Assembly: GCA_040755875.1 (NCBI GenBank)
Contig: JBFLZJ010000023.1
Span: 4,977 to 68,976 of the forward strand
Origin: Pseudomonadota bacterium
GTDB lineage: Bacteria > Pseudomonadota > Gammaproteobacteria > Burkholderiales > Burkholderiaceae_D
Reading direction: 5' to 3'
Length of the DNA: 64,000 nucleotides
A model generated the notes under the pieces. The model searched no databases, was not told where the DNA came from, and saw nothing but the letters and a program-made list of their open reading frames with translations. A program made the position numbers and the translations under genes. Of the stretch, positions 2,877 to 46,651 are shown piece after piece. How positions within the stretch are numbered: position 1 is the stretch's first letter; each line of letters opens with the position of its first letter.

Positions 2877-3067
2877 ATTGTTCTCCTGGCAAAAGGTGTA
2901 GGTCAAGAATAAGGAGGCCAGGGGCGGGGGTCTGTGCGATCACGCACGCTTGTTTGCCTGTTTGATATGTCAAACAATCATCTTCTTGTTGTGTTCGACA
3001 GCGTACAGAAACCCGGCTGTAATCGGCGTAAAACGTTCTTAGCGTGTTGACAAATGGAGCTAAGAAC

Positions 3068-3688
3068 ATGACAACAAGAATGAAAAATGCGCATGCGCTA
3101 CTGATACTCGGTGCGGCCCTGCTGTGGGTCGGCCAGGCCCGCGCCCAGGCCGTGACGACACCGGCGCCGGCAAGCCCGGCCGTCGCCGGCGCGCCGGCCG
3201 CCACCGCCACCGTGCCGGATGCCAAGACTGCCTATGAACGGGCGCGCGACATGGCCAACGCCAACTACAAGACGGCGCGCGCCCGCTGCGACAGCCTCAG
3301 CGGCAACCCGCACGACGTCTGCGAGGCCGAGGCCAAGGCCGAGCGCGTGCGTGCCGAGGAAGAAGCGGGCGCCGCCTACAAGAACACCCTGAAGGCCTAT
3401 ACCCAGGCCCGCATGCGCATCGCCGACGCCAACTATGCGCGCGACAAGGCGCGCTGCGGCGCGCTGGCGGGCAACGACCGCGACGTGTGCCTGAAGCAGG
3501 CCAAGGCGACCCTGGTCGCCGCCCAGGCAGACGCCACCGCGGACCGCAAGACGATCGAAGCGCGCAACAACGCGCGCGAAGACAAACTGACGGCGCAATA
3601 CCGGGTCGCGCTCGAGAAGTGCGACGCGTTTGCCGGCGCGGCGAAGGACCAGTGCGTCCAGGCCGCAAAAACCGCGTACGGCAAGTGA
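3068..3688 (+). CDS. Secreted alanine-rich protein with three C-X10-C repeats
   Basis: Signal peptide ending ARA|QA; CDSLSGNPHDVC, CGALAGNDRDVC, CDAFAGAAKDQC. Confidence 0.75.
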   Translation: MTTRMKNAHALLILGAALLWVGQARAQAVTTPAPASPAVAGAPAATATVPDAKTAYERARDMANANYKTARARCDSLSGNPHDVCEAEAKAERVRAEEEAGAAYKNTLKAYTQARMRIADANYARDKARCGALAGNDRDVCLKQAKATLVAAQADATADRKTIEARNNAREDKLTAQYRVALEKCDAFAGAAKDQCVQAAKTAYGK

Positions 3689-3752
3689 CGTACCGGTCCC
3701 GCTCGCAGTGAGCAACGCTGTAACTTTGACCAACGAAAGAAAGGGATACATC

Positions 3753-4067
3753 ATGAAAATCACCCAACGTCTCGCTACCGCCGTCTTTACCGGCGCCCTC
3801 GCGTTCACCATGGTCGGTTGCGCTTCGGGCCCGCAGCGCGAAAGCGCCGGCGAATACGTCGACGACAGCGTCATCACCGCCAAGGTGAAGGCCGCCTTCG
3901 CTGCCGATCCGACCGTGAAGGCGACCGAGATCAACGTCGAGACCTTCAAGGGCGACGTCCAGCTGTCCGGCTTCGTGGCCCAGCCGAGCGACGCCCAGCG
4001 CGCCGTCGAGGTTGCACGCGGCGTGAAGGGTGTAACATCGGTCAAGAACGACATCCGCGTGAAGTAA
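3753..4067 (+). CDS. BON-domain lipoprotein (OsmY-like)
   Basis: Lipobox MVGC; DDSVITAKVKAAF...INVETFKGDVQLSGFV BON signature. Confidence 0.92.
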   Translation: MKITQRLATAVFTGALAFTMVGCASGPQRESAGEYVDDSVITAKVKAAFAADPTVKATEINVETFKGDVQLSGFVAQPSDAQRAVEVARGVKGVTSVKNDIRVK

Positions 4068-4116
4068 TTCCCGCCGCCGGGGCGGCGCGGACCGGCAAAC
4101 TCATTTCGGCAAACAC

Positions 4117-5361
4117 ATGCAACTCGCCAGTCCTGGCTCGGCTCCAGCCGAGCCGAACAACTCCGCCGCCCCCGAGGCAACTCCGGCAATCACGGCCGAG
4201 GCCGTGAAGCCGGAATCCGTCGTCGGCACGTCCGACGACCTCGCTCTCCACGCCGGAGGCCTGCGCCTCCCCATCCATGTGAACGCCCGCGGCCTGTCGC
4301 TGGGCATCCTGGCCACCGTGGCCTTCGTCTTCGCGCTGCAATGGGCGCAAAAATTCTTCGTGCCGCTCCTGCTCGGCATCTTCATCGCCTATACCCTGAG
4401 CCCGATCGTGCGCTGGCTCGAGCGCGTGCATATCCCGCGCCTGATCGGCGCCACCATCGTCACCGCCGCGCTGCTGGGCGGCATGGGCGCGACCATGTTC
4501 CGCCTGCAGGACGAATTCTTCAACATCCTCGACGAGCTGCCGACCCTGACCCAGAAGGTCAGCAAGCTGGTCGCCAGCGCCGCCGGCGGCGAGGGCTCGA
4601 CCATCCAGCGCGTGCAGAAGGCCGCCGCCGAGCTCGAGCAGGCGACCGCCAATGTCGGCGCCAATCCGCGCCTGGTCCAGCGCCGTCCCACGATGGCCCA
4701 GCAGTCGTCGAGTTTCCGGATCACCGACTGGCTGCTGGCCGGTTCGGTCGGGCTCGCTTCCTTCATCACCCAGGCCACCATGGTGGTGTTCCTGGTGTTC
4801 TTCCTGCTGCTGGCCGGCGACACCTTCAAGCGCAAGCTGGTCAAGCTGACCGGCCCCTCGCTGACGCGCAAGAAGGTGACGGTGCACATCCTGGACGACA
4901 TCAACACCTCGATCCAGAACTACATGTTCATGCTGCTGGTCACGAACATCCTGCTGGCCCTGCTGATGTGGGTGGCGCTGCGCGCAATCGGCCTGAACAA
5001 TGCCGGCGCCTGGGCGATCTTCGCCGGCGTGGCCCACATCATGCCTTACTTCGGCCCCTTGCTGATCACCTCGGCCACCGGCCTGGTGGCCTTCATGCAG
5101 TTCGAGTCGCTGCGCATGGTCATCCTGGTGGCCGGGGCCTCGATGGGCATCGCCACCCTGGTCGGCATGGTCGTCACCACCTGGATGACCGGCAAGATCG
5201 CGAAGATGAACCCGGCCGCCGTGTTCGTCAGCCTGCTGTTCTGGGGCTGGCTGTGGGGGATGTGGGGTTTGCTGCTCGGCGTGCCCGTGGTGGTGGTGCT
5301 GAAGGTGGTCGCCGAGCGGGTCGAGGGAATGGAAGCGCTGGCCGAGCTGCTGGGAGAATAG
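4117..5361 (+). CDS. AI-2E family transporter
   Basis: Multi-TM protein; HIMPYFGP and MNPAAVFVSLLFWGWLWGMWGLLLGVP motifs. Confidence 0.9.
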   Translation: MQLASPGSAPAEPNNSAAPEATPAITAEAVKPESVVGTSDDLALHAGGLRLPIHVNARGLSLGILATVAFVFALQWAQKFFVPLLLGIFIAYTLSPIVRWLERVHIPRLIGATIVTAALLGGMGATMFRLQDEFFNILDELPTLTQKVSKLVASAAGGEGSTIQRVQKAAAELEQATANVGANPRLVQRRPTMAQQSSSFRITDWLLAGSVGLASFITQATMVVFLVFFLLLAGDTFKRKLVKLTGPSLTRKKVTVHILDDINTSIQNYMFMLLVTNILLALLMWVALRAIGLNNAGAWAIFAGVAHIMPYFGPLLITSATGLVAFMQFESLRMVILVAGASMGIATLVGMVVTTWMTGKIAKMNPAAVFVSLLFWGWLWGMWGLLLGVPVVVVLKVVAERVEGMEALAELLGE

Positions 5362-5388
5362 CAGCCGGCCAGGCCGCAAGTCAGTTTC

Positions 5389-6303
5389 CTAGGCCATGCG
5401 CTTGACGTTCTTGGCGCCGGTCTCGTGGTCCGGCTTGTGGCGCAGGCTGCCCAGTTGCAGCGCGTACTGGCGGGCGAATTCCGCGCCGAGGAAGAAGATC
5501 TGGGCCGAGTAATACACCCAGAGCAGCAGGGCGATCAGCGAGCCCGCCGCGCCGAAGCTGTTGGCCGCGCCGCTGTTGCCGATGTACAGGCCGATGCCGA
5601 ATTTCCCCAGCGTGAACATGGCCGCGGTGCCGAGGGCGCCGATGGTCACGTCGTGCCAGGACAGCTTGATGCGCGGCAGCAGCTTGTAGATCACGCCGAA
5701 CAGGGTGGCGATGACGAGGAAGCTGATGCACGAGGAAATCCAGCCGACGATGATCGACGCCTCCTTGTACATGCCGCCGAAGTAGTTCTCGACCACGGCC
5801 ATCGCCGCGCTCACCACCAGCGACACCATCAGCAGGAAACCCAGCACCAGGATCAGGCCGAAGGAGAGCAGGCGCGTGCGCACCGTGTCCCACCAGCTCG
5901 CGTCCTTCGGCGGCGGCACGTCCCAGATCTCGTCCAGGCTGTCCTTCAGTTCGGCGAACACGCTGGTGGCGCCGACCAGCAGCAGGACGGTGGCGATGAT
6001 GGTGGCCAGGCGTCCGGATTCCTTGTTCTGGGCGCCGGCCAGCACGGACTGGATGGTGTCGGCGCCCTGGGCGCCCACGAGGCCGCGCAATTCGTTGAAC
6101 AGCTGGCCCCGGGCCGCATCGGCGCCATAGAAGAAGCCGGCGATCGCGATGACCAGCACCAGGATGGGGGCGAGCGAGAACAGGGTGTAGAAGGCCAGGG
6201 CCGCCCCCTTGCTGGCGGCGCGGTGCTCCAGCCATTCGCTGACCGCGCATTTCATCACATGGATGATCTGGCGTGAGAATGGAAACCATTGTTTTACAGC
6301 CAT
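5389..6303 (-). CDS. YihY / virulence factor BrkB family membrane protein
   Basis: GAALAFYTLFSLAP and FGAAGSLIALLLWVYYSAQIFFLGAEF motifs; the true start may be somewhat downstream. Confidence 0.92.
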   Translation of the reverse strand: MAVKQWFPFSRQIIHVMKCAVSEWLEHRAASKGAALAFYTLFSLAPILVLVIAIAGFFYGADAARGQLFNELRGLVGAQGADTIQSVLAGAQNKESGRLATIIATVLLLVGATSVFAELKDSLDEIWDVPPPKDASWWDTVRTRLLSFGLILVLGFLLMVSLVVSAAMAVVENYFGGMYKEASIIVGWISSCISFLVIATLFGVIYKLLPRIKLSWHDVTIGALGTAAMFTLGKFGIGLYIGNSGAANSFGAAGSLIALLLWVYYSAQIFFLGAEFARQYALQLGSLRHKPDHETGAKNVKRMA

Positions 6304-6570
6304 ACCGGATCCTCCAGAAAAGAGAAAGGGGCGCGAGGCCCCTTAAGGAAGCACTGATGTATTCTGGCGGATGGGATTGGCCATGGAAAAAAGCGGCCGG
6401 CAAGGCGCAAACCGCAGCCATACCGCGTGGTATGGCGAGGATGTGCAACGCAGCAGGACGGTTTTTCTCCAGGCCAAGACCGCCGTCATGAATAACTCAG
6501 CGCTTCCTTCGATGTGTACGGCCAGCGGAGGCCCGGTGGAACAGGCCCTTGCCCCGCCGGCCGGGTCACA

Positions 6571-7611
6571 TTACTGCACGCGCTTTTCGATCGTGATCTG
6601 CTCGACTTCGACGCGGCGGTTCGGCTCCAGGCACTTGATCAGCTCGGAACGCTTCTTCTGGTCGCACTGGACGACAGGGTTTTCCTCGCCCTTGCCGACG
6701 GCGTTCAGGCGGCTGCCGTCGATGCCCTTGCTGACCAGGTAGTCACGCACGGCGTTGGCGCGGCGCTCCGACAGCTTCTGGTTGTACTTTTCCGAACCCA
6801 GGCGGTCGGTGTAGCCGGTGATGTCGACGTTGGTGATGCTGGTGTCGGCCTGCAGGGCGGCGGCGATCTCGTCCAGGCGGGTCTGCGGCATGCGCAGCTC
6901 GGCCTTGTCGAACTCGAACAGCTCGGTTGCCGACAGCGTGACCTTCTCGAAACGGGCCGGCGGTGGCGGCGGCGGAGCGACCGGGGCCGGAGCCGGGGCC
7001 GGGGCTTCGGCGATCGGAGCCGGAGCCGGCGCCGGTGGGGCTGGCGGCGGGTTGAAGGCGTAGTTCAGGCCGACGGTGACGTACTTGTTGTTGCTCTGCT
7101 TGAAGCCATACAGTTCGTCGTCACGCAGGAAGCCGCGCACCGAGCGGATGTCGGCCTGCAGGTTCCACTGCGGGGTCAGGTCGACCTGGAAGCCGACGCC
7201 CATGGTGGCGTACGGCGAGTTCTTGCTGACGCGACGCAGCGGGTTGTCAACCTTGTCGCGCTCGGCGCCGACGCCGAACAGGACGAATGGGCGGAATCGT
7301 TCGCGCGACAGCATCAGCAGCGCATCGACGCCAAGCAGGGTCTGGCGATAGCGCGCAGCGCCGTCTTCGGTGCGGGCGTGGGTGGCGCCAACCTGGATGT
7401 CCCAGTACTGGTGCACCGCCTTACCGAACTTCAGGCCGCCGCCCCAGTCCTTGTCGTCCACGCCGAAGTCGGCGTCGGGCTTGATGCCGACGACGCTGGG
7501 CTGGATGTACCAGGACGGGTTGACGATCGGGGTTGCCGCATCTTGGGCCAGCGAGGAGCCGGCGGCGCAGAGCATGGCGACGGCCAGGGCGATCTTCTTC
7601 GAATTATTCAC
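6571..7611 (-). CDS. ompA: OmpA family outer-membrane protein
   Basis: Signal peptide, beta-barrel, Pro-Ala linker, and C-terminal OmpA domain (GYTDRLGSEKYNQKLSERRA, NRRVE); GTG start inferred. Confidence 0.92.
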   Translation of the reverse strand: MNNSKKIALAVAMLCAAGSSLAQDAATPIVNPSWYIQPSVVGIKPDADFGVDDKDWGGGLKFGKAVHQYWDIQVGATHARTEDGAARYRQTLLGVDALLMLSRERFRPFVLFGVGAERDKVDNPLRRVSKNSPYATMGVGFQVDLTPQWNLQADIRSVRGFLRDDELYGFKQSNNKYVTVGLNYAFNPPPAPPAPAPAPIAEAPAPAPAPVAPPPPPPARFEKVTLSATELFEFDKAELRMPQTRLDEIAAALQADTSITNVDITGYTDRLGSEKYNQKLSERRANAVRDYLVSKGIDGSRLNAVGKGEENPVVQCDQKKRSELIKCLEPNRRVEVEQITIEKRVQ

Positions 7612-8074
7612 AGGAAACTCCCATAAGTTGAAAAGGTAGGGTGACATCGCGTGCCTTGACAGTGATGTTGGAGTGAAGATTACGAGGCCGAGTTCCAAAG
7701 GGTCCGTGCGCTAGCGCACCTATAGGAACTGCTGAGTGACAAAACCGCAACATTGCCATCCTGTTCAAACCGCTCCTCTATATAGAGGGAAGGGCCTTGG
7801 GGGAGAATTGGAGGAATGTTTCTAATTTTCCACATTTCCGTGGTATTTCCACAACAACAGCCTGCCTGGGCCGTATTCCTTGATTTTTTGCAGAGAAGAA
7901 ATTGCCGAAATGCCTGCTGGAATTTTGCCAATGTGGGCTGGCGCACAGACCGGCCGGGCTGACGCAGGCAATCTTGAGGCCAGTTAAGCGGAACCCGAGG
8001 TGTTGTCAGGGTGTCAGACGACACACAGCGACCCGGACCACACAGTCTCTCTCTATCTAACGGAGTACACCAAC

Positions 8075-8689
8075 ATGCATGCAACGACTCATCACAACGC
8101 GGTGCAAGGCGACCACGGCGCAGTGCACACTTCCAGCAACTCAGCGCTGATCGAACGCGTGCCGCCCCAACCGACCGAACGTGCGCCGATCTCGCTGGCG
8201 CCGATCGAGCGTGTGCGGTCGACCTCAGCCACCCAGCGTCGGATCGAGAACATGCAGAAGCTGATCAACGAACTGTCGACCCACGAGATGCTCGCCGACG
8301 AGATCGCATGGTTCCTCAAGTTCTCGCCGTCGGGCGCACGCAAGTACATCCGCGACCTGCGCGAAGCCGGCGTCATCGAACTGGCCCGCTACATCGAAGG
8401 CACCGCCACCTACCTGGGCAAGGCCGTCTACCAGATCTGCCCGGACCAGGAGCGCGTGAAGGCCTTCCTGGCCGCGATCTGCCAGCCGAAGCGCGAAGGC
8501 GCCGCCCCGCGCAAGGAGCGTCCGGGCCTGCGCGAGCAGAGCATGGCCGGCAGCGGCCGCCACTTCCACATCCTGGCCGACGACACCCACTACGCGATCC
8601 GCGTGAACCGCAGCCCGGTCACCCGCGATCCGCTGGTCGCCGCGCTGTTCGGCCCGGCGCCGAACCAGGTCGCCAAAGAGCGCACCTGA
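8075..8689 (+). CDS. Winged helix-turn-helix domain hypothetical protein
   Basis: EMLADEIAWFLKFSPSGARKYIRDLREAGVI resembles an HTH plus wing; GGAG RBS. Confidence 0.7.
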   Translation: MHATTHHNAVQGDHGAVHTSSNSALIERVPPQPTERAPISLAPIERVRSTSATQRRIENMQKLINELSTHEMLADEIAWFLKFSPSGARKYIRDLREAGVIELARYIEGTATYLGKAVYQICPDQERVKAFLAAICQPKREGAAPRKERPGLREQSMAGSGRHFHILADDTHYAIRVNRSPVTRDPLVAALFGPAPNQVAKERT

Positions 8690-8760
8690 GAGTCCTGCCG
8701 GAAGGGCATTGCGGCGGAGACCCGCGGCGCCCTTCCTGATCCGACGATCGCTGTCGTCAC

Positions 8761-8789
8761 GCAAACGCCGCGCACCGCGCGGCGTTTGC
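8761..8789 (+). terminator. 13-bp perfect hairpin downstream of the wHTH gene, probable terminator
   Basis: gcaaacgccgcgc-acc-gcgcggcgtttgc; the U-tract is weak. Confidence 0.5.
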
Positions 8790-8919
8790 CGTTTACCTGC
8801 CACCCGTACTTCCACCCTGCACGGCGCCGGCTTCCTCCACCGTTGAAATCCCGTCAACAGGCCCCAAGTTCGGCGGGTGCGGCGCTCTGCCGCGTCCCGC
8901 TAACGGAAAAGGAAACCCC

Positions 8920-9678
8920 ATGCTGCCAAGTGCCGAATCCCTGGAAGGCAAGCCAGTACCGAGTGTCACCTTCAAGACCCGTCCCGACGACCAGTGGCGG
9001 GACCTGACGAGCGAGGAGCTGTTCAAGGGCAAGACTATCGTCGTGTTCGCGCTGCCCGGCGCCTATACGCCCACCTGTTCCTCGACCCACCTGCCGCGCT
9101 TCAACGAACTGGCGGCCGTGCTGCGCGATAATGGCGTCGACGAGATCGTCTGCGTCTCGGTCAACGACGCCTTCGTCATGAACGAGTGGAAGCGCGGCCA
9201 GGATGCCGACGCCATCACCTTCATCCCCGACGGCAACGCCGACTTCACACGAGGGATGGGCATGCTGGTCGACAAGCGCGAGCTCGGTTTCGGCCAGCGT
9301 TCCTGGCGCTATTCGATGCTGGTGCGCGACGGCATCATCGAGAAGATGTTCATCGAGGCCGAGGGCGAAGACGACGACCCCTTCGAGGTCTCCGACGCCG
9401 ACACCATGCTCAGGCACATCAATCCCGAGGCCGAGGCGCCCGAGCCCATCGTGATGTTCTCGCGTCCCGGCTGCCCGTTCTGCGCGCGCGCCAAGGCCGC
9501 CCTGGCCAGGCATCGCCTGCGCTACACTGACATTTCCCAGAGCCAGAAGATCAATACCAGCGTGCTGCGCGCCGTCAGCGGGCGCATGACCTGGCCCCAG
9601 GTCTTCATTGGCGGCCAGTTGATCGGCGGCGCCGACGAGCTCGAATCGCACCTGGCCGAGCGCACGGCGGCCGCGTGA
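8920..9678 (+). CDS. Hybrid peroxiredoxin (Prx5)-glutaredoxin (PGdx-like)
   Basis: LPGAYTPTCSSTHLP peroxidatic motif plus a C-terminal Grx domain (CPFC, PQVFIGG). Confidence 0.93.
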   Translation: MLPSAESLEGKPVPSVTFKTRPDDQWRDLTSEELFKGKTIVVFALPGAYTPTCSSTHLPRFNELAAVLRDNGVDEIVCVSVNDAFVMNEWKRGQDADAITFIPDGNADFTRGMGMLVDKRELGFGQRSWRYSMLVRDGIIEKMFIEAEGEDDDPFEVSDADTMLRHINPEAEAPEPIVMFSRPGCPFCARAKAALARHRLRYTDISQSQKINTSVLRAVSGRMTWPQVFIGGQLIGGADELESHLAERTAAA

Positions 9679-9712
9679 ACGCAGTTCTGTTTTTTTCGAA
9701 AGAGGCGGGACC

Positions 9713-10582: not shown

Positions 10583-10704
10583 GCGTCTGTCCGGCGGGGA
10601 GCGCGCTTCCCGCCGAGTCCGGTCCTGAACTGCGTGCGTTTGCGTACAGAATATGCAGCCCAGCAGGAGCATGCTTCGGATAACCATCGATGCAGGAGAA
10701 TTCC

Positions 10705-11259
10705 ATGTCCACCATCATTGCAGGGCACTTCCAGCTCCAGGACGAGGTCGATGTGGCGCGCCGCGCCCTGGCCGACGCCGGCTTTCCGTCCGAGCGCATC
10801 AGCAGTTTCTACCTGAGCCAGGCCGGCCAGCACGACCTGACGCCGATCGGCGGCGACAACCAGCTCTCGCCCGGCGCCAAGGAAACCCCGGTCGGCGTCG
10901 TGCAGGGCTCGGCCACCGGCGGCGCCGTCGGCGCGGTGCTGGGCGCGGCCACGGCGCCGGTGACGGGGCCGGCAGGGCCGATCGTCGGCGGCCTGGTCGG
11001 GGCGCACGTCGGCTCGCTGTTCAGCTTTTCCAAGATGAAGGAAGCCGGCGAGCAGGAAGAGGGCGGCCGCGCCCCGGTCGAGCAGCGCATGGCCGGGATG
11101 CTGGTCGCCGTGGCCTTCGACGACGCCAACCTGGAGGGACGGGCCGTCGAGGTGCTGCGCAAGCTCGGCGCGCGCCAGATCGAGCGCGCGCGCGGCAACA
11201 TCGTCGATGGCGACTGGGCCGACTTCGACGCCTCGGTCCCGCCCGAGATTCTGCATTGA
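10705..11259 (+). CDS. Glycine-zipper-containing putative general stress protein
   Basis: GSATGGAVGAVLGAA...GGLVGAHVG zipper; AGGAG RBS. Confidence 0.7.
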   Translation: MSTIIAGHFQLQDEVDVARRALADAGFPSERISSFYLSQAGQHDLTPIGGDNQLSPGAKETPVGVVQGSATGGAVGAVLGAATAPVTGPAGPIVGGLVGAHVGSLFSFSKMKEAGEQEEGGRAPVEQRMAGMLVAVAFDDANLEGRAVEVLRKLGARQIERARGNIVDGDWADFDASVPPEILH

Positions 11260-11279
11260 AGCGCCTTACCTGAAGACGT

Positions 11280-11382
11280 AGAGCGCCTAACCAAACCTCC
11301 ATAGCGGCGTTGCAGCTCCGCGCCGTACATGTGTACTGTCTTCGTCGCCGCGCCTTGCTCTGAAGGTTTTGTTAGGCGCTCT
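11280..11382. mobile_element. MITE-like element with 19-bp terminal inverted repeats
   Basis: agagcgcctaaccaaacct (11280-11298) and aggttttgttaggcgctct (11364-11382), one mismatch; non-coding interior; TA/TTA flanks. Confidence 0.55.
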
Positions 11383-11520
11383 TAGCTGACAGCTTTGCGT
11401 CTTGCGTGGCCACAAAGCCACGCTCTTCTGTGCCTTTGATCCAGCTCAAAGTTCCCCTGGCCCCCGCTCCTAGACTTGTCGTTTCCGGCCGGGTGGCCGC
11501 GTTTGACAAGGGGAAAAGAC

Positions 11521-12267: not shown

Positions 12268-12270
12268 CCT

Positions 12271-12645: not shown

Positions 12646-12801
12646 GTCAGTCCCACAGCGCGCCGGACGCCGGCGCGCTTCTCCCAATCTGTTGGAACGA
12701 AGGAAAGCGGTCCATCGCACACTCCCCACATGAATGCCTTGTGGGTTCAGTGTAGCGCGATGCGCCCGGGATGAACATGGGCGCACGCGCGCCGCGCGGT
12801 C

Positions 12802-13350: not shown

Positions 13351-13366
13351 ACCGCCTCCGCAGATA

Positions 13367-34048: not shown

Positions 34049-34055
34049 GGCTGCC

Positions 34056-35315: not shown

Positions 35316-35400
35316 GGTGTCAGTGTCCTCAAGAATCCTTCGCGGCGGCGAAGGCGGCGAAGGAAATCGGGCGGCCGCCGAGGCTGGTGCTGGCGGACCG

Positions 35401-36077: not shown

Positions 36078-36174
36078 CGCGCAGGTTTTCATCGCAGGAT
36101 CCCCCTGTCGCCGCGAGCCCTTGCCGGCCCGCGCCCGCCTGCGCGCCTGATCGACATTCTTATCAGGAGCAAGC

Positions 36175-37443: not shown

Positions 37444-37450
37444 GAGAACC

Positions 37451-38656: not shown

Positions 38657-38666
38657 AGGGGCGGCC

Positions 38667-41600: not shown

Positions 41601-41813
41601 GCGGTCCTGTTGACGGCCCTGGTCGCCTCGCTCGGCTTCCTGCCGATGGCGCTGGCGACCAGCACCGGGGCCGAGGTGCAAAGGCCGCTGGCGACTGTGG
41701 TCATCGGCGGCATCCTGTCGTCGACGGCGCTGACGCTCTTGATCCTGCCGGCGCTGTACACCTGGGCGCATGGGGGAGGGCGCGGGGGGCGTCAGCGAGT
41801 GCTCCTGGGTTAA
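38667..41813 (+). CDS. czcA: Heavy-metal efflux RND transporter (CusA/CzcA family)
   Basis: LPIDAVPDITNVQVQINT, ALDFGIIVDGAVVIVEN and GAEVQRPLATVVIGG. Confidence 0.95.
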   Translation: MFDKLIAFVIARRALVIFAVLCLCGLGVYSYGRLPIDAVPDITNVQVQINTAAPGYSPLEVEQRITFPIETVMSGLPGLEQTRSLSKYGLSQVTVVFRDGTDIWFARQLVNERLQGAKAGLPEGLEPAMGPTATGLGEIFYWTVEAKEGARKADGSPYTPMDLREIQDWIVAPQLRGVAGVTEVNTIGGYLKEYLVAPDMDRLAAHGLSLATLVAAIDRNNANAGAGYIERGGEQFVVRTPGQVKSLEEIRNIVLDVVDGAPIRVRDVAEVDIGRELRTGAATENGREVVLGAVFMLIGENSRAVAESARRKLEQVNRSLPAGVQALPVYDRSVLVNKAIATVRTNLVEGALLVVAILFLFLGNLRAALITALVIPLTMLMVFTGMVEAGVSANLMSLGALDFGIIVDGAVVIVENCIRRLGIAQGAAGRPLTREERFAEVARAAAEARRPLLFGQLIIMTVYLPIFALSGIEGRMFHPMAITVVLALGAAMILSVTFVPAAVALFVTRAVPEHENRIMDRARGVYRRLLDWVLRNRPVALGFALLSVLLSGLLATRLGAEFAPNLDEGDLAVLTMRIPGTSLTQSVAMQQQLEAALLKQFPEIERMFARVGTAEVATDPMPPNAADSYIMLRPQKDWPAPRRTHAELVEAITAAANRIPGNSYEFSQPIQLRFNELISGVRSDIAVKVFGDDTEAMTDAAQQVARVLGKVAGAAEVKVEQTEGLPALTLNVDRIKAARYGLNVADVQEAFGTLVGGRDVGMVFEGDRRFAITVRLPEGLRKDLDSLRRLPMALPAQDGRAASIPLSEIATLSFVPEANQISRENGKRRVVVTANVRGRDLGSFVAELERGLAGVKLPPGTWLSLGGQFENLQAASQRLALVIPAALALVFALLYLMFNSLKDGLLVFSGIPFAMTGGVLALWLRGLPLSISAAVGFIALSGVAVLNGLVMMSFVRALREQGQGPEQAMRAGAEARLRAVLLTALVASLGFLPMALATSTGAEVQRPLATVVIGGILSSTALTLLILPALYTWAHGGGRGGRQRVLLG

Positions 41814-41917
41814 ACTGCCCGCGTATCGGCGAGTCACGGCGGCTCGCCGGCATGACACGAGCTTGCGCTCGACCGATCGATCCGATCCGGGTGCGCGCAT
41901 TTCGAGGGGAACCGAAC

Positions 41918-42217
41918 GTGACATTCGAAGAATGGGGAGAAGTCGTCAGGACCGGCACGTTCCTGTATGACGGTGCGGTCAGCTGTGACCTGCGGATTGT
42001 CCGCAGCCCCATCCGGTATGGCTCCGGAGACTGGGAAGACCCTCCCGAGATCGCCAACGACCAGGAGCTGGAAACCTTCTACGTCCAGTATGGGAGTTCC
42101 ACGGAGCGCGGACGCTTCAACGCAGGAGGCGGTGGCCATGACACCCTGCGCGACGCCATGGAGGCGACTCAAGCCGCACCCGGCATCGGGCCCACGGTGC
42201 AATGGGACGTCGACTAG
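41918..42217 (+). CDS. Small acidic hypothetical protein
   Basis: GTG start after GAGGGG; FEEWGEVVRTGTFLYDG...QWDVD*. It is the real tail of shadow ORF 38735..42217. Confidence 0.6.
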   Translation: MTFEEWGEVVRTGTFLYDGAVSCDLRIVRSPIRYGSGDWEDPPEIANDQELETFYVQYGSSTERGRFNAGGGGHDTLRDAMEATQAAPGIGPTVQWDVD

Positions 42218-42252
42218 ACATGGCGCGCCATCCGGACAGGGAGATAGGACAG

Positions 42253-42597
42253 ATGGGCTTCTTCAAGAATGCCTGGGACCTGCGGGATCGGGTAAACCGC
42301 TCCCCCGTTGTGATCGCGCTCATGCTGCTATTGCTTGGGGGCTTCACATATTCGATCCACTGGAGAGACGATCCTTCCCGTGATGGGGCCGAGAAGCTCG
42401 TTCGGGCAGATGCGGCGATTGCGCAGGCTGCCGGCGACATACGCCGTGTCAATCTGAAAAGGGTCGCCCATGGGGCGTGTGGACCACAGTGCTCCGCTTA
42501 TACATTCAGCGTAGTCGGCACGCGCGCCATTGTGCGTGTAACGGTCGAGGCCCGGGCCGGCGCTCAGGGGAAGCCGGACCTTCGGATTCCGCGCTAA
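42253..42597 (+). CDS. Small single-TM hypothetical protein
   Basis: MGFFKNAW..., TM segment VVIALMLLLLGGFTY, CGPQC; codon usage atypical for the window. Confidence 0.5.
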   Translation: MGFFKNAWDLRDRVNRSPVVIALMLLLLGGFTYSIHWRDDPSRDGAEKLVRADAAIAQAAGDIRRVNLKRVAHGACGPQCSAYTFSVVGTRAIVRVTVEARAGAQGKPDLRIPR

Positions 42598-42636
42598 GGA
42601 GCTGCGCCAGGTAGCCGGCCCCGGAAACTGGCCTGC

Positions 42637-43590
42637 TCACCCGCGGTAATGCACCTCGATCGTCGAATGCACGATCTCTTCGTGCACCGCGAGCCGCTCG
42701 CGTACCTTGTCCGCGGTGAGGGTGTGGTCGCGCGTGACCACGCCCAGCGCGCAGGCATAGGACTCGCGGCCGACGCGCCAGACGTGCAGGTCGACGATGC
42801 GGGTGTCGCCATCCGCATTGTCTTCCACGACCTCGCGGATCTCGGCGACGACCGGGGCGTCCATCTCGCGGTCGAGCAGGACCTTGCCGGTGTCGACGAT
42901 GAGGTTCTTCGCCCACACCGCCACCAGCACGGCGCCGACGATGCCCATCAGCGGATCGAGCCAGGCCCAGCCGAAGAACCAGCCGCCGAACAGGGCGGCG
43001 ATCGCCAGCACCGAGGTGGCGGCGTCGGCGATCACGTGCACGTAGGCCGACTTCAGGTTCAGGTCGTGGTGGTGGTGACCATGGCCGTGGCCATGGCTGT
43101 GGCCATGATCGTGGCCGTGATGGTGGGCGCCGCCGAGGATGAAGGCGCACACCACGTTCACCACCAGGCCGAGCACGGCAACGATGATCGCGTCGCGGTA
43201 GTGGATGGGCGAGGGCGCGAAGAAGCGCTCGATCGAACTGGTGGCCATGAGGGCGGCGATGCCGAGCAGGGAGACGGCGCTGGTGTAGCCGGCCAGGATC
43301 TCGATCTTCCAGGTGCCGAAGGCGAAGCGCGGGTCGTTCGCATACTTGCGCGCGGCCGCGTAGGCGAAGGTGCTCAGGCCGATCGCCAGGGTATGCGAGC
43401 TCATGTGCCAGCCGTCGGCCAGCAGGGCCATGGAATTGAACCACCAGCCGGCGGCGATCTCGACGACCATCATGACCGCCGTGATCCACATCACCAGTCG
43501 CGTGCCGCGCTCGGCGGCATGGCTGCCTTGATCGAACACGTGGTCGTGGGTCCAGTGGGAGAGGTCGTCGGGCTGTCGGGTGGTGTTCAT
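42637..43590 (-). CDS. dmeF: CDF family Co(II)/Ni(II) efflux transporter DmeF
   Basis: LADGWHMSSH, His-rich loop, NLKSAYVHVIADA and VHSTIEV. Confidence 0.93.
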   Translation of the reverse strand: MNTTRQPDDLSHWTHDHVFDQGSHAAERGTRLVMWITAVMMVVEIAAGWWFNSMALLADGWHMSSHTLAIGLSTFAYAAARKYANDPRFAFGTWKIEILAGYTSAVSLLGIAALMATSSIERFFAPSPIHYRDAIIVAVLGLVVNVVCAFILGGAHHHGHDHGHSHGHGHGHHHHDLNLKSAYVHVIADAATSVLAIAALFGGWFFGWAWLDPLMGIVGAVLVAVWAKNLIVDTGKVLLDREMDAPVVAEIREVVEDNADGDTRIVDLHVWRVGRESYACALGVVTRDHTLTADKVRERLAVHEEIVHSTIEVHYRG

Positions 43591-43612
43591 ATCGTTCCTG
43601 TGGGTCAGGCGC

Positions 43613-43789
43613 TTACTTGCCCGCCAGTTTACTTTCTCGGCGTGCGCGCTCGTTGATGATCTGGTGGCGCCGGTGGTCGGTCATCTTCTTCCATTCGCGC
43701 GCCTCGGGCCGGGTGCGCAGGCAGCCGGTGCAAAAGCCGGTACGGCCATCGAAGCTGCACAGTTCGATGCAGGGGGACTTGACTGCCAT
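43613..43789 (-). CDS. DUF1289 domain small Cys-rich protein
   Basis: MAVKSPCIELCSFD..GFCTGCLRT..E..EW. Confidence 0.85.
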   Translation of the reverse strand: MAVKSPCIELCSFDGRTGFCTGCLRTRPEAREWKKMTDHRRHQIINERARRESKLAGK

Positions 43790-43794
43790 GGCGC

Positions 43795-44070
43795 CTACTT
43801 GAGGTAGCTGCGCACGACCTCGACCAGCTCGTCGGCGCCCTTGCTGCGTTCGCCGGCGTCGAGCGCGGGGGCGGCCACGTGCTCGCGGATGTGGTCCTCG
43901 ATCACCCCGGCCATCAGGCCGTTCATGCCGCCGCGGGCGGCCGCCAGCAGGTGCAGGATCTCGGCGCAGTCCTGCTCGGCCTCGAGGGCGCGCTCGACGG
44001 CCTCGAGCTGGCCGCGGATCCGGCGGACCCGGTTCAGCAGTTTCGTTTTTTCGCGTGCGGTATGGCTCAT
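43795..44070 (-). CDS. dmeR: RcnR/FrmR/DmeR family metal-sensing repressor
   Basis: MSHT...KLLNRVRRIRGQ..., CAEILH and EDHIREHV; GAGGAGG RBS. Confidence 0.92.
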   Translation of the reverse strand: MSHTAREKTKLLNRVRRIRGQLEAVERALEAEQDCAEILHLLAAARGGMNGLMAGVIEDHIREHVAAPALDAGERSKGADELVEVVRSYLK

Positions 44071-44091
44071 GCATCCTCCTCGGGGCGCATC

Positions 44092-44113
44092 ATAGCATAG
44101 GGGGGTAGGGTAT
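44092..44113 (-). promoter_or_regulatory. DmeR/RcnR-type operator
   Basis: Plus strand ATAGCATA-GGGGGG-TAGGGTAT: a G/C6 tract flanked by AT-rich inverted arms, immediately upstream of dmeR. Confidence 0.78.
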
Positions 44114-44218
44114 ACGGCATGGGGTCCGGGGTATGTATGTTGATTCAAGTGCAATCCTCAACGTACACTTGAGCGCGATAGATGTCCGCCACCCTGTCGT
44201 CGACCACCGAGGACCACC

Positions 44219-44953
44219 ATGCCGCATCCGCATTCATCGCCCGGCAAGCGCCCGATCCAGTCCCTTGCCCGCCTGGCCGGCCTGCTCTACCTGCTCGTCA
44301 TCGTCATCGGCGTGCTGGGCGAGGGGCTGGTCAGGGGAACGCTGGTGGTGTCGCGCGACCCGGAAGCGACGGCGCGCAATATCCGCGCGGCCGAGCCGCT
44401 GTGGCGCCTGGGCGTTGCGGGACAGGACCTGCTGCTGGTCTGCGCCCTCGGGATGACCTTCATCTGGTACGTGCTGCTGCGCCCGGTGAACGGCAGGCTC
44501 GCCCTGCTGGCGGTGTTGTTTGGGCTGACGTCGCTGGCCGTCGAGAGCGTCGCCGCGCTGCACCTGCATGCGGTGCTGACGCCGCTGTCCGATGCCGCCT
44601 ACCTGAAGGCGGTGGCCCCGCAGCTGCTGCACCTGATGGCCTACCAGTCGGTGGTCGCGCATGCGCAGGCCTTCGGCCTGGCGCTGATCTTCTTCGGGGT
44701 GGAGTGCCTCATCGTCGGGCACCTGGTCCGCCAGTCGGGCTTCTTCCCCAGGGCGATCGGCACGGCGATGCAGGTGGCGGGCGCCTGCTATCTGGTCAAC
44801 AGCTTCAGCATGATCCTGTCGCCGGCCCTGCAGGACCTGCTGTTCCCCTTCATCCTGCTGCCGCCCTTCCTCGCCGAGAGCGCATTCTGTCTCTACCTGC
44901 TGGTCAAGGGCGTCGACCTGCCCGCCTGGGAGCGGCGCACAGCCTGCGCCTGA
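44219..44953 (+). CDS. DUF4386-type multi-TM membrane protein
   Basis: ARLAGLLYLLVIV, LIFFG..CLIVGHLVRQSGFFPRAIG and E..FCLYLLVKGV. Confidence 0.8.
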   Translation: MPHPHSSPGKRPIQSLARLAGLLYLLVIVIGVLGEGLVRGTLVVSRDPEATARNIRAAEPLWRLGVAGQDLLLVCALGMTFIWYVLLRPVNGRLALLAVLFGLTSLAVESVAALHLHAVLTPLSDAAYLKAVAPQLLHLMAYQSVVAHAQAFGLALIFFGVECLIVGHLVRQSGFFPRAIGTAMQVAGACYLVNSFSMILSPALQDLLFPFILLPPFLAESAFCLYLLVKGVDLPAWERRTACA

Positions 44954-44974
44954 GAGCGGGGCCGCGGCGCCGGC

Positions 44975-45490
44975 TCAGGCCTCGGCCCAGAGCCGCTCGC
45001 CGGTATGCTCCATGTGCGTCAGGTAGAGCCGCAGGTCGAACTCGTACTGGTGGTACTGCGGCTCCATCCAGCAGCACAGCTTGTAGAAGGCCTTGTCGTG
45101 CTGTTTTTCCTTCAGGTGGGCCAGCTCGTGCACGGCGATCATGCGCAGGAACTCGGGCGGGGCGTCGCGGAACACGCTGGCGATGCGGATCTCGTGCTTG
45201 GCCTTGAGCTTGCTGCCCTGGACGCGCGAAATGGCCGTGTGCAGGCCGAGCGCGTGCTGGACCACGTGGATCTTGCTGTCGTAGGCGACCTTCGAGACCG
45301 GTTCGGCGTTGCGCAGGTACTCGTCCTTCAAGTCCTGCACGTAGTCGTAGAGCGCGCGGTCGGTGCGCAGGCCGTGGGCGCGCGGGTAGCGCGTGCGCAG
45401 CAGGGCGCCGAGGCGGTTCTCGGCCAGCAGGCCGGCGGCCTGGCGGCGCAGCTGTTCGGGATAGGCGGTCAGGTACTTGAGCTCTTGCAT
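44975..45490 (-). CDS. YgjP-like metal-dependent hydrolase (M48-like, HEXXH)
   Basis: LKYLTAYP...HELAHLKEKQHDKAFYKLC. Confidence 0.9.
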   Translation of the reverse strand: MQELKYLTAYPEQLRRQAAGLLAENRLGALLRTRYPRAHGLRTDRALYDYVQDLKDEYLRNAEPVSKVAYDSKIHVVQHALGLHTAISRVQGSKLKAKHEIRIASVFRDAPPEFLRMIAVHELAHLKEKQHDKAFYKLCCWMEPQYHQYEFDLRLYLTHMEHTGERLWAEA

Positions 45491-45579
45491 AGGGGCGGGA
45501 ATGTACCACAGGCGTGCGCCGCCGGCGATGGGCTCGTCCTATCCTGTTGGTTTCGACAGCCAACATGAGGAGGACCGCA

Positions 45580-45912
45580 ATGAAACTCGACAACTTCCAG
45601 AGCTGCATCGATGCCTGCAATGCCTGCGCCACGGCCTGCGACAACTGCGCCGCGTCCTGCCTGCGGGAAGAGGACGTCAAGATGATGGCGCGCTGCATCG
45701 CCCTCGACATGGACTGCAGCCAGGTATGCCGGCTGGCCGCCGGCGTGATGGCGCGCGCCAGCGAGCACGCGGCCGCGGTCTGCCGCCTGTGCGCCGACAT
45801 CTGCCGGGCCTGCGCCGAGGAGTGCGGGAAGCACCAGATGGACCACTGCCAGCAATGCGCGGCCGCCTGCCGGCGCTGCGCCGAGGAATGCGAGCGGATG
45901 GCGGCTGCCTGA
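45580..45912 (+). CDS. Four-helix-bundle copper storage protein (Csp3/DUF326)
   Basis: 19 Cys in CX2-3C repeats; no signal peptide; GAGGAGG RBS. Confidence 0.92.
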   Translation: MKLDNFQSCIDACNACATACDNCAASCLREEDVKMMARCIALDMDCSQVCRLAAGVMARASEHAAAVCRLCADICRACAEECGKHQMDHCQQCAAACRRCAEECERMAAA

Positions 45913-46124
45913 GCCAGGCCCGCGTCTGGCCGGCGTACGGCCTGGAGACGCGCGCCTGCGCCGCGCCAGGCGCCGCGCAGGCAAAGAAATGGAAGAGATG
46001 GAGGATGGGAACGGGAAGAAGGCCCCGTCCGGGTCCTTCCCGATCTGACCGGCTCGCCAATCCGGCCCGGCTCATCCGTCGATGGCCCGGGCCGGATTGG
46101 CAGCGCAAGCCACAAGGCCTGCGC

Positions 46125-46481
46125 TTACTGCTCCTTGCCCCCCTGGCGGTTGCCCGCCGACTTGGCGGCGTTGGCCGCGCGGTTTGCCGATTGCCGGCTT
46201 TCGCCGCCCTTGCGACCGATGTCGGCCATGTGTGCACGGTTGCGGCTCACCGCCTCACCGCCTTTCTGCCCGGCGCGGCGCGCTTCTTCGGAATCGAATT
46301 CGTGCGCCGTGCCTTTCTGGTGGGCGGCCTGGCCGCCCTTGCTGGCGATCTCGCGCTGCTGGTTCTGGTCCATCGCCGCGAAACCGCGTTTGGCGGGACC
46401 GCTGCCGCTGCCGCTGCCGCTTTTCTGCGCGCTGCCGCCGGAGCTGCCCGCGCTCTTGCCGCTCTCCTTACTCGTCGCCAT
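46125..46481 (-). CDS. KGG-repeat general stress protein (YciG/GsiB-like)
   Basis: RGFAAMDQNQQREIASKGG, ARRAGQKGG and HMADIGRKGG repeats. Confidence 0.92.
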   Translation of the reverse strand: MATSKESGKSAGSSGGSAQKSGSGSGSGPAKRGFAAMDQNQQREIASKGGQAAHQKGTAHEFDSEEARRAGQKGGEAVSRNRAHMADIGRKGGESRQSANRAANAAKSAGNRQGGKEQ

Positions 46482-46651
46482 GTCGCTCTCCTGGTTGCCC
46501 TGCACATGAATGGAATTGAACGCAGCATTGCCGCGCTCGTGCGGTTAGAGACACAGCCGGTTTGATAGTTCCGTCAGCTTGCTGCGTCATGCAGGGCGCC
46601 ACGGCACGCCGCGCCGACCGCACTCCGGCCGGCGCGGCGTGTCATCGATCA

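What the first reader, a model, noticed from the sequence alone, without database searches (positions are those of the whole stretch)
2933..46553. Recurrent YGT-N10-ACAGA box at near-fixed distance upstream of stress genes: candidate unknown regulon
In gene orientation the sites are: CGTGCGTGATCGCACAGA (core 2948-2933, lipoprotein), TGTTCGACAGCGTACAGA (2992-3007, C-X10-C protein), TGTGGGCTGGCGCACAGA (7932-7947) and TGTCAGACGACACACAGC (8012-8027, wHTH gene), CGTGCGTTTGCGTACAGA (10633-10648, glycine-zipper protein), and TGTCTCTAACCGCACGAG (46553-46538, KGG protein). Four share YGT.(C/G)G....CGYACAGA. Four lie about 56-60 nt from the inferred ATG and one about 47 nt. TGT-N10-ACA is the geometry of CRP/FNR-family boxes such as NtcA and Clr. 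The inference is that a CRP-family factor drives a general-stress regulon.
Basis: partly seen in the sequence, partly recalled or inferred. Interest (0 to 1): 0.65.

Follow-up and report, generated by a model that had tools for sequence, protein, structure and literature searches.

The report
CRP-family activator box of stress promoters

Summary
Sites 1, 2, 3 and 5 fit one motif, TGTnCG-N4-CGyACAGA. That is 4 exact pattern hits in the window against 0.01 expected. Site 4 is weak and site 6 (KGG gene) is not a site. A fifth good box at 7703-7720(-) was missed.

The box is a 16-20 bp palindrome. A TAnnnT -10 hexamer starts 20 nt after it, there is no -35, and the box centre falls at about -41.5. 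This is the classic class II CRP/FNR layout.

The boxes recur at orthologous promoters in other genera. In this genome they also precede genes for CsbD, BON, PRC-barrel, glycine-zipper and GSP26-like proteins, and two small RNAs.

The likely binder is a 243-aa CRP/FNR-family protein. Its gene ends contig C3, which joins the window's contig, so it lies about 5.4 kb upstream of the window.
- Members of its subfamily have a box within 1.5 kb in 50 of 56 loci across Burkholderiales.
- 24 of 25 box-rich genomes encode the subfamily.
- LuxR-type receptors and the window's own wHTH protein fail the same test.

The regulator lacks the cAMP-binding arginine and carries invariant Cys/His residues. I found no description of it in the searchable literature. 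I file it as a new member of a known kind. Nothing here has been tested experimentally.

The parts
2931..2948 (-). Box 1, CGTGCGTGATCGCACAGA, for the glycine-zipper lipoprotein gene
   Evidence: 21.4 bits. The orthologous box GGTGCG..CGCACAGA followed by CTATTCT/CTATCCT is present in other genera.
2906..2911 (-). Predicted -10 hexamer TATTCT, starting 20 nt after box 1
   Evidence: Read; spacing rule.
2412..2876 (-). Target gene: glycine-zipper 2TM lipoprotein (154 aa)
   Evidence: Pfam Rick_17kDa_Anti/Gly-zipper; gene call.
2992..3009 (+). Box 2, TGTTCGACAGCGTACAGA, for the secreted 206-aa protein and probably the BON gene behind it
   Evidence: 22.4 bits. A gene-oriented box of at least 14.7 bits followed by GTAAAAC/GTATAAC lies upstream of the ortholog in 13 of 29 loci from other genomes of the family.
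3029..3034 (+). Predicted -10 hexamer TAAAAC, starting 20 nt after box 2
   Evidence: conserved as GTAAAAC in other genera.
3068..4067 (+). Target genes: 206-aa exported Cys-repeat protein (3068-3688) and BON-domain protein (3753-4067)
   Evidence: Co-transcription of the two genes is inferred.
7703..7720 (-).
   Evidence: 17.8 bits; sequence; an equivalent box lies next to the ortholog in locus L159.
6571..7611 (-). Target gene: OmpA-family outer-membrane protein; start re-set to the GTG at 7611
   Evidence: Pfam OmpA + OMP_b-brl; RBS GGGAG and GTG start read.
7932..7949 (+). Box 3, TGTGGGCTGGCGCACAGA, with -10 CAATCT at 7969-7974, for the wHTH gene
   Evidence: 24.4 bits. Orthologous boxes of 21.8-24.4 bits followed by CAATCT/CATTCT are seen in at least L151, L152, L153 and L159 (part of that output was cut).
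8075..8689 (+). Target gene: 204-aa winged-helix protein (P0001), possibly a secondary regulator
   Evidence: Weak HTH_24/HTH_11 hits; 81-97% identical across genera but found in only 18 of 81 genomes.
10633..10650 (+). Box 5, CGTGCGTTTGCGTACAGA, with -10 CATGCT at 10670-10675
   Evidence: 22.7 bits; an orthologous 17.6-bit box is present in L151.
10705..11259 (+). Target gene: 184-aa glycine-zipper protein
   Evidence: Pfam Gly-zipper_Omp, below its cut-off.
8012..8029 (+).
   Evidence: 7.2 bits; no orthologous box of at least 13 bits at this position in the visible part.
46536..46553 (-).
   Evidence: -9.4 bits; no hit of 9 bits or more anywhere in that intergenic region.

Best explanation
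The box T-n-TGTnCG-N4-CGnACA-G-A is the binding site of a homodimeric CRP/FNR-family transcription factor. This 243-aa protein is encoded at G000:C3:474860-475591, about 5.4 kb upstream of the window start in the same conserved 'stress island'.

The site is centred at about -41.5 of promoters that have a TAnnnT -10 hexamer and no -35 hexamer. The factor therefore most likely works as a class II activator: it replaces the -35 contact and recruits RNA polymerase.

The regulon has two parts.
- The island itself: glycine-zipper lipoproteins, BON proteins, OmpA-family proteins, DUF5670, DUF4398, AsmA-family, an exported Cys-repeat protein and a wHTH protein.
- Scattered general-stress genes: CsbD, a 425-aa BON/LEA-like protein, PRC-barrel, a GSP26-like Pyrid_ox protein, a YdeP-like oxidoreductase, a metallophosphoesterase, and two RF02278-type small RNAs.

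The palindromic box next to the regulator gene probably also drives that gene (positive autoregulation).

The signal is unknown. The cAMP phosphate-binding arginine is absent, and an invariant Cys147/His151/Cys224-x-Cys226 set suggests a metal, Fe-S or redox input.

Shown: the motif, its enrichment, its fixed spacing to the -10, its conservation, and its linkage and co-occurrence with the regulator family. Inferred: binding, activation, sigma factor, signal and autoregulation.
For: Enrichment.
- The pattern occurs 4 times in the window against 0.01 expected.
- With the matrix at 12 bits or more, the genome has 53 noncoding hits; reversed or permuted matrices give 7-26. Gene-oriented hits 20-150 nt from a start number 28 against 1-5. 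Hits with TAnnnT at +19..21 number 15 against 0-2.

Architecture.
- Among 100 distinct boxes of 18 bits or more, the only information downstream is T-A-n-n-n-T at box positions 37-42 (A 85%, T 77%). The rest of the spacer is uninformative and no -35 is present.

Conservation.
- Boxes recur at orthologous promoters across genera in a syntenic island.
- The box upstream of the regulator gene is essentially invariant (one base, A or T, varies) in 79 of 80 Massilia loci, while its surroundings vary.

Regulator.
- Pfam HTH_Crp_2 (52.6 bits) and cNMP_binding (28 bits) are both above cut-off. Foldseek top hits are all CRP/FNR proteins.
- The gene is linked to the window: the end of C3 joins the start of C23. 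In other genera it lies 9-10 kb from, or directly beside, the ortholog of window gene 3068-3688.
- 26 of 29 loci in the same family and 24 of 27 loci in the wider order have a box within 1.5 kb of the regulator gene (15 bits or more; 14 bits or more). 30 control loci, 90 kb in total, have a single hit of 12 bits or more.

Phyletic pattern.
- Genomes with the subfamily have a median of 6 pattern hits; those without have a median of 1. The reversed-pattern control averages 2.1 against 1.7 (Fisher p = 3e-7).
- 24 of 25 box-rich genomes encode the subfamily.

Specificity logic.
- The residue aligned with CRP Glu181 is Val and Arg180 is kept.
- In the box, the base pair that Glu181 reads in CRP is degenerate (A/G/T), while the G read by Arg180 is invariant.
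Against: - No experiment supports the model: there is no binding assay, no mapped TSS and no expression data.
- Two genomes carry many pattern hits but no detectable regulator homolog even at E 0.001: G051 (27 hits) and G068 (7 hits). Both assemblies are fragmented and 93% complete.
- The subfamily has paralogs. There is one more in this genome (40% identity, Glu at the 181 position), and Glu-type paralogs in other families also sit beside boxes. Which paralog binds which box is therefore not resolved.
- A site overlapping the -35 region could also serve a repressor.
- The AF2 model is of modest quality (pLDDT 64.5), so the Cys/His cluster could not be checked in three dimensions.
Confidence: 0.72

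Rival explanations
1. The same CRP/FNR-family protein binds the boxes, but as a repressor that occludes the -35 region. The stress promoters are then -10-only promoters, for example RpoS-dependent ones, that fire when the repressor leaves.
For: The box covers -49 to -32. The genome encodes RpoS, and sigma-S promoters can do without a -35. No expression data exist.
Against: The spacing between box and -10 is fixed to within 1 bp over 100 sites from many genera. That is expected for a protein-polymerase contact, not for occlusion. It is also the canonical -41.5 class II position of CRP, FNR and NtcA (established knowledge). One palindrome appears to serve two divergent promoters at the same spacing.
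Confidence: 0.12
2. The box is bound by another regulator: a TraR/LuxR-type quorum-sensing receptor (the tra box ATGTGCAGATCTGCACAT is very similar, recalled from memory), or the window's own wHTH protein P0001, which has a box in front of it.
For: The box resembles the tra box and sits at a LuxR-like position near -42. One Autoind_bind protein exists in the genome. P0001 is highly conserved and sits in the island.
Against: Autoind_bind proteins show no association with box counts: the median is 5 with and 5 without, and only 11 of 25 box-rich genomes have one. P0001 is present in only 18 of 81 genomes and in 12 of 25 box-rich genomes, and it is present in G001, which has no boxes. Neither is linked to boxes outside the island, whereas the CRP subfamily is.
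Confidence: 0.06
3. The conserved half CGyACAGA is a -35-like element read directly by an alternative sigma factor. The upstream half is incidental.
For: The promoter-proximal half is better conserved than the distal half. The targets are stress genes, which many bacteria control through alternative sigma factors.
Against: The element is a two-fold symmetric 16-20 bp palindrome; perfect palindromes occur between divergent genes. The 19-nt gap to the -10 does not fit a 16-17 nt sigma spacing. Box counts follow the CRP subfamily.
Confidence: 0.04
4. The similarity among the sites is chance in a GC-rich genome.
For: Sites 4 and 6 of the original list are indeed no better than chance.
Against: 4 hits against 0.01 expected in the window; control matrices; cross-genus conservation.
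Confidence: 0.01

Closest known systems
E. coli CRP (CAP) at class II promoters such as galP1
   Same: Same protein family (Pfam, Foldseek). The site is a 16-bp palindrome with the same half-site spacing (TGTGA-N6-TCACA against TGTnCG-N4-CGnACA). It is centred at -41.5, there is no -35 hexamer, and Arg180 and its G contact are conserved.
   Different: Sequence identity is only about 20%. The cAMP phosphate-binding Arg82 is replaced. Glu181 is Val and Arg185 is Lys, so the site has new specificity at the CG step and none at CRP base pair 7. There is an extra C-terminal helix with a Cys-x-Cys motif. The regulon is stress and envelope genes, not carbon catabolism.
NtcA of cyanobacteria (GTA-N8-TAC, -41.5, TAN3T -10)
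   Same: TGT-N10-ACA geometry; activator-dependent promoters with only a TAnnnT -10; Val at the position of CRP Glu181 (from memory of the NtcA helix).
   Different: NtcA senses 2-oxoglutarate and controls nitrogen assimilation. It is not an ortholog: no NCBIfam or PDB match at a useful level.
SdrP of Thermus thermophilus (stationary-phase CRP-family activator; from memory)
   Same: A CRP/FNR-family activator without a cyclic-nucleotide effector that turns on stress and stationary-phase genes from class II sites.
   Different: Different phylum and only distant sequence relationship. SdrP did not appear among the top 50 Foldseek matches (the top one is a different Thermus CRP-family protein, 4ev0). 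SdrP has no Cys/His signature.
lxa locus and its Anr/FNR-type motif in Burkholderia cenocepacia (PMC3721108)
   Same: A stress-protein island in a betaproteobacterium, peppered with CRP/FNR-type palindromes and encoding its own CRP-family regulators.
   Different: The lxa motif is TGA-N6-TCA (FNR/Anr type) and responds to low oxygen. The box here is TGTnCG-N4-CGnACA, and its regulator lacks the N-terminal FNR cysteine cluster.

Membership tests
CRP/FNR superfamily of transcription factors (the proposed regulator) | C-terminal winged HTH of the Crp type | tested here: met
   Pfam HTH_Crp_2 at 52.6 bits against a cut-off of 27; aligned to the HTH of 3dv8.
CRP/FNR superfamily of transcription factors (the proposed regulator) | N-terminal beta-barrel (cNMP-binding-like) domain followed by a long dimerisation helix | tested here: met
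   Pfam cNMP_binding at 28.0 bits against a cut-off of 27.5. The AF2 secondary structure shows strands over residues 34-112 and then a helix over 124-149. Foldseek top 50 are all CRP/FNR proteins, probability 1.00, although TM-scores are only 0.36-0.54.
cAMP-dependent CRP proper | Phosphate-binding cassette Arg-Ser/Thr-Ala (CRP R82-S83-A84) that holds cAMP | tested here: not met
   By manual alignment (not a tool result), the corresponding stretch is H-Q-T-A in this protein. The Arg position is Q/D/E/L/V in orthologs.
FNR proper | N-terminal Cys cluster and an E--SR recognition helix that reads TTGAT-N4-ATCAA | tested here: not met
   There are no N-terminal cysteines. The helix is RRVGVTK. 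The genome has a separate true FNR at C7:288954.
Class II activator-dependent promoter | Dimer site centred near -41.5, overlapping a missing or poor -35, at fixed distance from the -10 | tested here: met
   The TAnnnT hexamer starts 20 nt after the box in a profile of 100 sites, and no -35 signal is seen. The TSS is inferred, not mapped.
Class II activator-dependent promoter | Transcription depends on the bound activator | not testable with these tools
   This needs a deletion mutant, a reporter or in vitro transcription.
Regulon of this regulator (membership of each reported site) | A matrix score comparable to conserved sites, with a correctly spaced -10 | tested here: inconclusive
   Met for sites 1, 2, 3 and 5 and for 7703-7720 (17.8-24.4 bits). 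Not met for site 4 (7.2 bits) or site 6, the KGG gene (-9.4 bits).

The most novel reading that the evidence does not exclude
This CRP/FNR subfamily is marked by an invariant Cys-x3-His at the start of the DNA-binding domain plus a C-terminal Cys-x-Cys. It may be a metal-, Fe-S- or redox-sensing master activator of a general envelope, desiccation and stationary-phase stress programme across Betaproteobacteria, also carried on Burkholderia, Cupriavidus and Ralstonia plasmids or chromids. That would be an activator-based counterpart or partner to RpoS, and it would include control of the widespread double-hairpin (bdhR/NcS27-type) small RNAs in some lineages.
Probability: 0.25. Interest if true: 0.75.

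Novelty: new member of a known kind. Interest (0 to 1): 0.58.

Why it matters
KGG, CsbD, BON and glycine-zipper genes are the hallmark general-stress proteins of many bacteria. How Betaproteobacteria switch them on is poorly described beyond RpoS.

This analysis provides three things: a defined DNA site, a fixed promoter design and a named candidate regulator gene. With them the regulon becomes directly testable by one deletion, one EMSA and one RNA-seq experiment, and it can be predicted in hundreds of soil and plant-associated genomes.

The invariant Cys/His set points to a sensing mode not described for CRP/FNR proteins. The link to two RF02278-type small RNAs offers a first candidate transcriptional input for members of that widespread sRNA family.

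Mechanistically it remains an ordinary CRP-type class II system. Earlier findings of this scan have already met the same module in other genomes.

Tried and rejected
- **KGG site and second wHTH site:** both score at chance level.
- **P0001 (window wHTH protein) as the binder:** rejected on phyletic pattern.
- **LuxR/TraR-type receptor as the binder:** no association with box counts.
- **Rfam scan of the window:** nothing at gathering thresholds.
- **Box upstream of RF02278 sRNAs in general:** 30 loci from other families of the order have none. Only the tandem pair at C14 in this genome carries boxes, so the upstream motif reported for the B. cenocepacia homologs (PMC5688073, Fig. S3, an image that is not held) could not be compared.
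- **Literature:** searches for the consensus, for Crp/Fnr stress regulators in Oxalobacteraceae, for the lxa motif, for Bcam1349, for YeiL and of a CRP/FNR superfamily motif survey found no description of this box or subfamily. The lxa motif is a different, FNR-type site.
- **Names and solved relatives:** only generic 'Crp/Fnr family' labels; the best PDB sequence match is 3dv8 at E = 2e-4.
- **AF2 model:** too uncertain at residues 136-150 and 225-243 to test whether the invariant Cys and His residues cluster.
- **Gene caller:** my first two home-made versions picked antisense ORFs and were discarded. The third, trained on GC-position-filtered ORFs, was used.
- **G051 and G068:** a looser search for the regulator found nothing. 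This remains unexplained.

Full report
**1. The observation**

The six strings exist where stated.

The shared pattern YGTNSGNNNNCGYACAGA matches four times in the window: 2931-2948(-), 2992-3009(+), 7932-7949(+) and 10633-10650(+). Dinucleotide-preserving shuffles give 0.01 expected.

I laid the whole genome (5.6 Mb, 66% GC, 36 contigs; the window is C23:4977-68976) in the Python box. I called genes with a home-made dicodon model; two earlier versions were discarded. Genome-wide the pattern has 7 hits. Six are intergenic, and all six are oriented towards a gene start within 120 nt.

Sites 1, 2, 3 and 5 are therefore one motif. Site 4 (8012) is marginal, and site 6 (the KGG gene) is not a site. 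A fifth good box, GGTGCGCTAGCGCACGGA at 7703-7720(-), precedes the OmpA-family gene, whose start I re-set to the GTG at 7611.

**2. Anatomy**

Other strong copies in the genome showed that the motif is a palindrome. Between two divergent genes on C7 the sequence reads TCTGTACGCCGGCGCACAGA in both directions.

I profiled 100 distinct boxes of 18 bits or more: 16 from this genome and 84 from syntenic loci of other genera. The profile gives T-n-T-G-T-n-C-G-N4-C-G-y-A-C-A-G-A.

Downstream of the box there is no information at all except at positions 37-42, which read T-A-n-n-n-T (A 85%, T 77%). That is a -10 hexamer starting 20 nt after the box. No -35 hexamer is present.

If the hexamer occupies -12 to -7, the palindrome centre is at -41.5. 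In the window the hexamers are:
- TATTCT at 2906-2911(-)
- TAAAAC at 3029-3034
- TAATCT at 7677-7682(-)
- CAATCT at 7969-7974
- CATGCT at 10670-10675

Site 3 lies 125 nt from its ATG.

**3. More than chance, genome-wide**

| Measure (matrix at 12 bits or more) | Real matrix | Reversed or permuted matrices |
|---|---|---|
| Noncoding hits / all hits | 53 / 126 | 7-26 / 59-114 |
| Gene-oriented hits 20-150 nt from a start | 28 | 1-5 |
| Noncoding hits with TAnnnT at +19..21 | 15 | 0-2 |

Thirteen of the real hits are the training sites. The excess remains after removing them.

**4. What the boxes precede**

In the window the targets are:
- a glycine-zipper 2TM lipoprotein
- an exported 206-aa Cys-repeat protein followed by a BON protein
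- an OmpA-family protein
- a 204-aa winged-helix protein (P0001)
- a glycine-zipper protein

Elsewhere in the genome the targets are:
- CsbD
- a 425-aa BON/LEA-like protein
- a PRC-barrel protein
- a YdeP-like molybdopterin oxidoreductase, divergent from a metallophosphoesterase
- a 498-aa glycine-zipper protein
- a Pyrid_ox_like (GSP26-type) protein
- DUF72, DUF4398, DUF5670 and AsmA-family proteins
- two tandem RF02278-like double-hairpin small RNAs, each with box, TATAGT and terminator

The KGG gene is not in it.

**5. Conservation**

Orthologs of window gene 3068-3688 occur in 56 of 81 sampled genomes of the GTDB family. In 13 of the 29 fetched loci from other genomes, a gene-oriented box of at least 14.7 bits sits upstream. 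It is followed at the same spacing by GTAAAAC or GTATAAC. The divergent lipoprotein box with CTATTCT or CTATCCT is there too.

I fetched 20-kb syntenic regions from twelve other genomes. They show boxes at the orthologous promoters of sites 1, 2 and 3, of the OmpA gene and of site 5, together with several more boxes in the part of the island that lies just outside the window.

**6. The regulator**

One weaker palindrome in the genome-wide list lies 119 nt upstream of a 243-aa protein at the very end of contig C3.

*Family assignment.* The protein has Pfam HTH_Crp_2 and cNMP_binding domains, both above cut-off. It is one of five CRP/FNR proteins in the genome. The others are a true FNR, a Dnr-like protein, one 40%-identical paralog and one more distant member.

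*Linkage to the window.* A complete relative, Telluria sp. B2, shows that the end of C3 continues into the start of C23. The gene therefore lies about 5.4 kb upstream of the window, in the same island.

*Conservation of its own box.* In 79 of 80 Massilia loci the box GTATGT(a/t)CGGTGACGCACGGAA upstream of the gene is otherwise invariant, while the flanks vary in sequence and length.

*Linkage in other genera.* The gene lies 9-10 kb from, or directly beside, the ortholog of 3068-3688.

*Boxes next to subfamily genes.*

| Loci examined | Identity to the regulator | Loci with a box within 1.5 kb |
|---|---|---|
| Same GTDB family | 44-83% | 26 of 29 (15 bits or more) |
| Other families of the order | 41-58% | 24 of 27 (14 bits or more) |
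| Control loci (RF02278 sRNAs, 90 kb in total) | not applicable | 1 hit of 12 bits or more in 30 loci |

*Phyletic pattern.* Among 81 genomes, those with the subfamily have a median of 6 pattern hits and those without have a median of 1. The reversed-pattern control averages 2.1 and 1.7 (Fisher p = 3e-7). 24 of 25 box-rich genomes have the subfamily.

These comparisons are not corrected for phylogeny. Two fragmented genomes, G051 and G068, are unexplained exceptions.

**7. Rivals tested**

- P0001, the window's own wHTH protein with a box in front, occurs in only 18 of 81 genomes. It is absent from many box-rich genomes and present in G001, which has no pattern hits. It is a target, perhaps a secondary regulator, not the binder.
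- The box resembles the TraR tra box (from memory), and one LuxR-type receptor exists in the genome. Autoind_bind proteins show no association with box counts.
- An alternative-sigma -35 reading does not fit the two-fold symmetry or the 19-nt gap.
- RpoS is present. Which sigma factor reads the -10 is open.
- A repressor role cannot be excluded without expression data. The 1-bp-precise phasing to the -10 across genera argues for a polymerase contact, that is, activation.

**8. Specificity and signal (inference)**

Aligned to CRP and to 3dv8, the recognition helix G-V-R-R-V-G-V-T-K keeps Arg180, has Val for Glu181 and has Lys for Arg185. The BLAST alignment to CRP is not significant on its own, but it is in register.

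In CRP, Arg180 reads the G of TGTGA and Glu181 reads base pair 7 (established knowledge). In the box that G is invariant, and the position equivalent to base pair 7 is A/G/T. This fits the loss of Glu181.

The cAMP phosphate-binding Arg is not conserved.

Across 56 loci at 41-83% identity, Cys147, His151 and the C-terminal Cys224-x-Cys226-Tyr are invariant or nearly so; His151 is replaced at three loci. This points to a candidate metal, Fe-S or redox site. The AF2 model has pLDDT 64.5 and is low exactly at those segments, so it could not test the clustering. Its Foldseek matches are all CRP/FNR proteins.

In the regulator's own direction, the palindrome is followed after 20 nt by a conserved TAcgCT. 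This suggests positive autoregulation.

**9. Comparison with what is known**

The system works like CRP, FNR or NtcA class II activation and belongs to the CRP/FNR superfamily. It is neither cAMP-CRP nor FNR proper (see the membership table).

I found only generic names and no close solved structure. No paper in the searchable library describes this box or subfamily. The B. cenocepacia lxa motif is a different, FNR-type site.

Homologs at 42-52% identity lie on plasmids or chromids of Burkholderia, Cupriavidus, Ralstonia, Variovorax and others. A B. multivorans plasmid locus shows a variant box, (C/G)GTACG-N4-CG(T/G)AC(C/G)GA, in front of CsbD and glycine-zipper genes beside such a homolog.

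Five earlier findings of this scan, in other genomes, describe the same box and regulator family. They agree with my reading, but they are AI notes, not independent evidence.

**10. Verdict**

The finding is real and largely correctly interpreted. It is a conserved class II box of an uncharacterised CRP/FNR-subfamily regulator that controls an envelope and general-stress regulon. I file it as a new member of a known kind. All functional steps still await experiment.

Noticed in passing
window 62109-62173 (+): This stretch matches Rfam RF02278 (Betaproteobacteria toxic / double-hairpin sRNA) at 36.4 bits, below the gathering score. It lies between proQ and the rpoD-like gene. The genome has 7 such matches. 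This is the 'AT-rich island with terminator' flagged by another first-stage note. It has no box.
   Followed up: partly
G000:C14:81254-81520 (-) (L001:2255-2472): Two tandem RF02278-like sRNA genes. Each is preceded by a strong box (25-27 bits) and a TATAGT at +20/21, and each ends in a terminator. Only these 2 of the 7 paralogs carry boxes. The best-matching homologs in other families of the order do not.
   Followed up: yes
regulator protein, G000:C3:474860-475591 (residues 147, 151, 224, 226): Cys147, His151 and Cys224-x-Cys226-Tyr are invariant or nearly so (His151 is replaced at three loci) across 56 subfamily loci at 41-83% identity. This is a candidate metal, Fe-S or redox site, unlike the N-terminal cluster of FNR.
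   Followed up: partly
G000:C3:474790-474830 (leader of the regulator gene; conserved in L011-L090): A second conserved element, ACATTTGCAAACAA, contains the 8-bp palindrome TTTGCAAA. It lies between the box and the regulator's start codon in nearly all Massilia loci. It may be another operator or a leader element gating the regulator's own expression.
   Followed up: no
G051 and G068 (handles): Two fragmented genomes carry 27 and 7 pattern hits but have no detectable homolog of the regulator, even at E 0.001. The cause could be an assembly gap (here too the gene sits at a contig end beside a repeat) or a real exception.
   Followed up: partly
window 8075-8689 (+): This 204-aa winged-helix protein has no Pfam family above its cut-off. 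It is 81-97% identical across genera, more conserved than the regulator itself, and always sits behind a strong box. It is a candidate second-tier regulator.
   Followed up: partly
L223 (B. multivorans plasmid NZ_CP090706.1, 20222-38824): A plasmid-borne mini-island holds CsbD, glycine-zipper, DUF3309 and DUF3096 genes and a 45%-identical Crp/Fnr gene. It uses variant boxes GTACG-N4-CG(T/G)AC at the same spacing to a CAnCnT -10.
   Followed up: partly
G000:C2:347473-347492, about 280-390 nt upstream of the rpoH-like gene: A moderate palindromic box (18.2 and 11.6 bits in the two directions) lies upstream of the sigma-32 homolog. A possible link between this regulon and the heat-shock sigma factor was not examined.
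   Followed up: no
G000:C1:123357-123374 (+): A 22.7-bit box with a TATTCT -10 points at no called gene; a short ORF or sRNA may start near 123430. The other direction of this palindrome faces the PRC-barrel gene, and an SDR gene lies beyond it.
   Followed up: no
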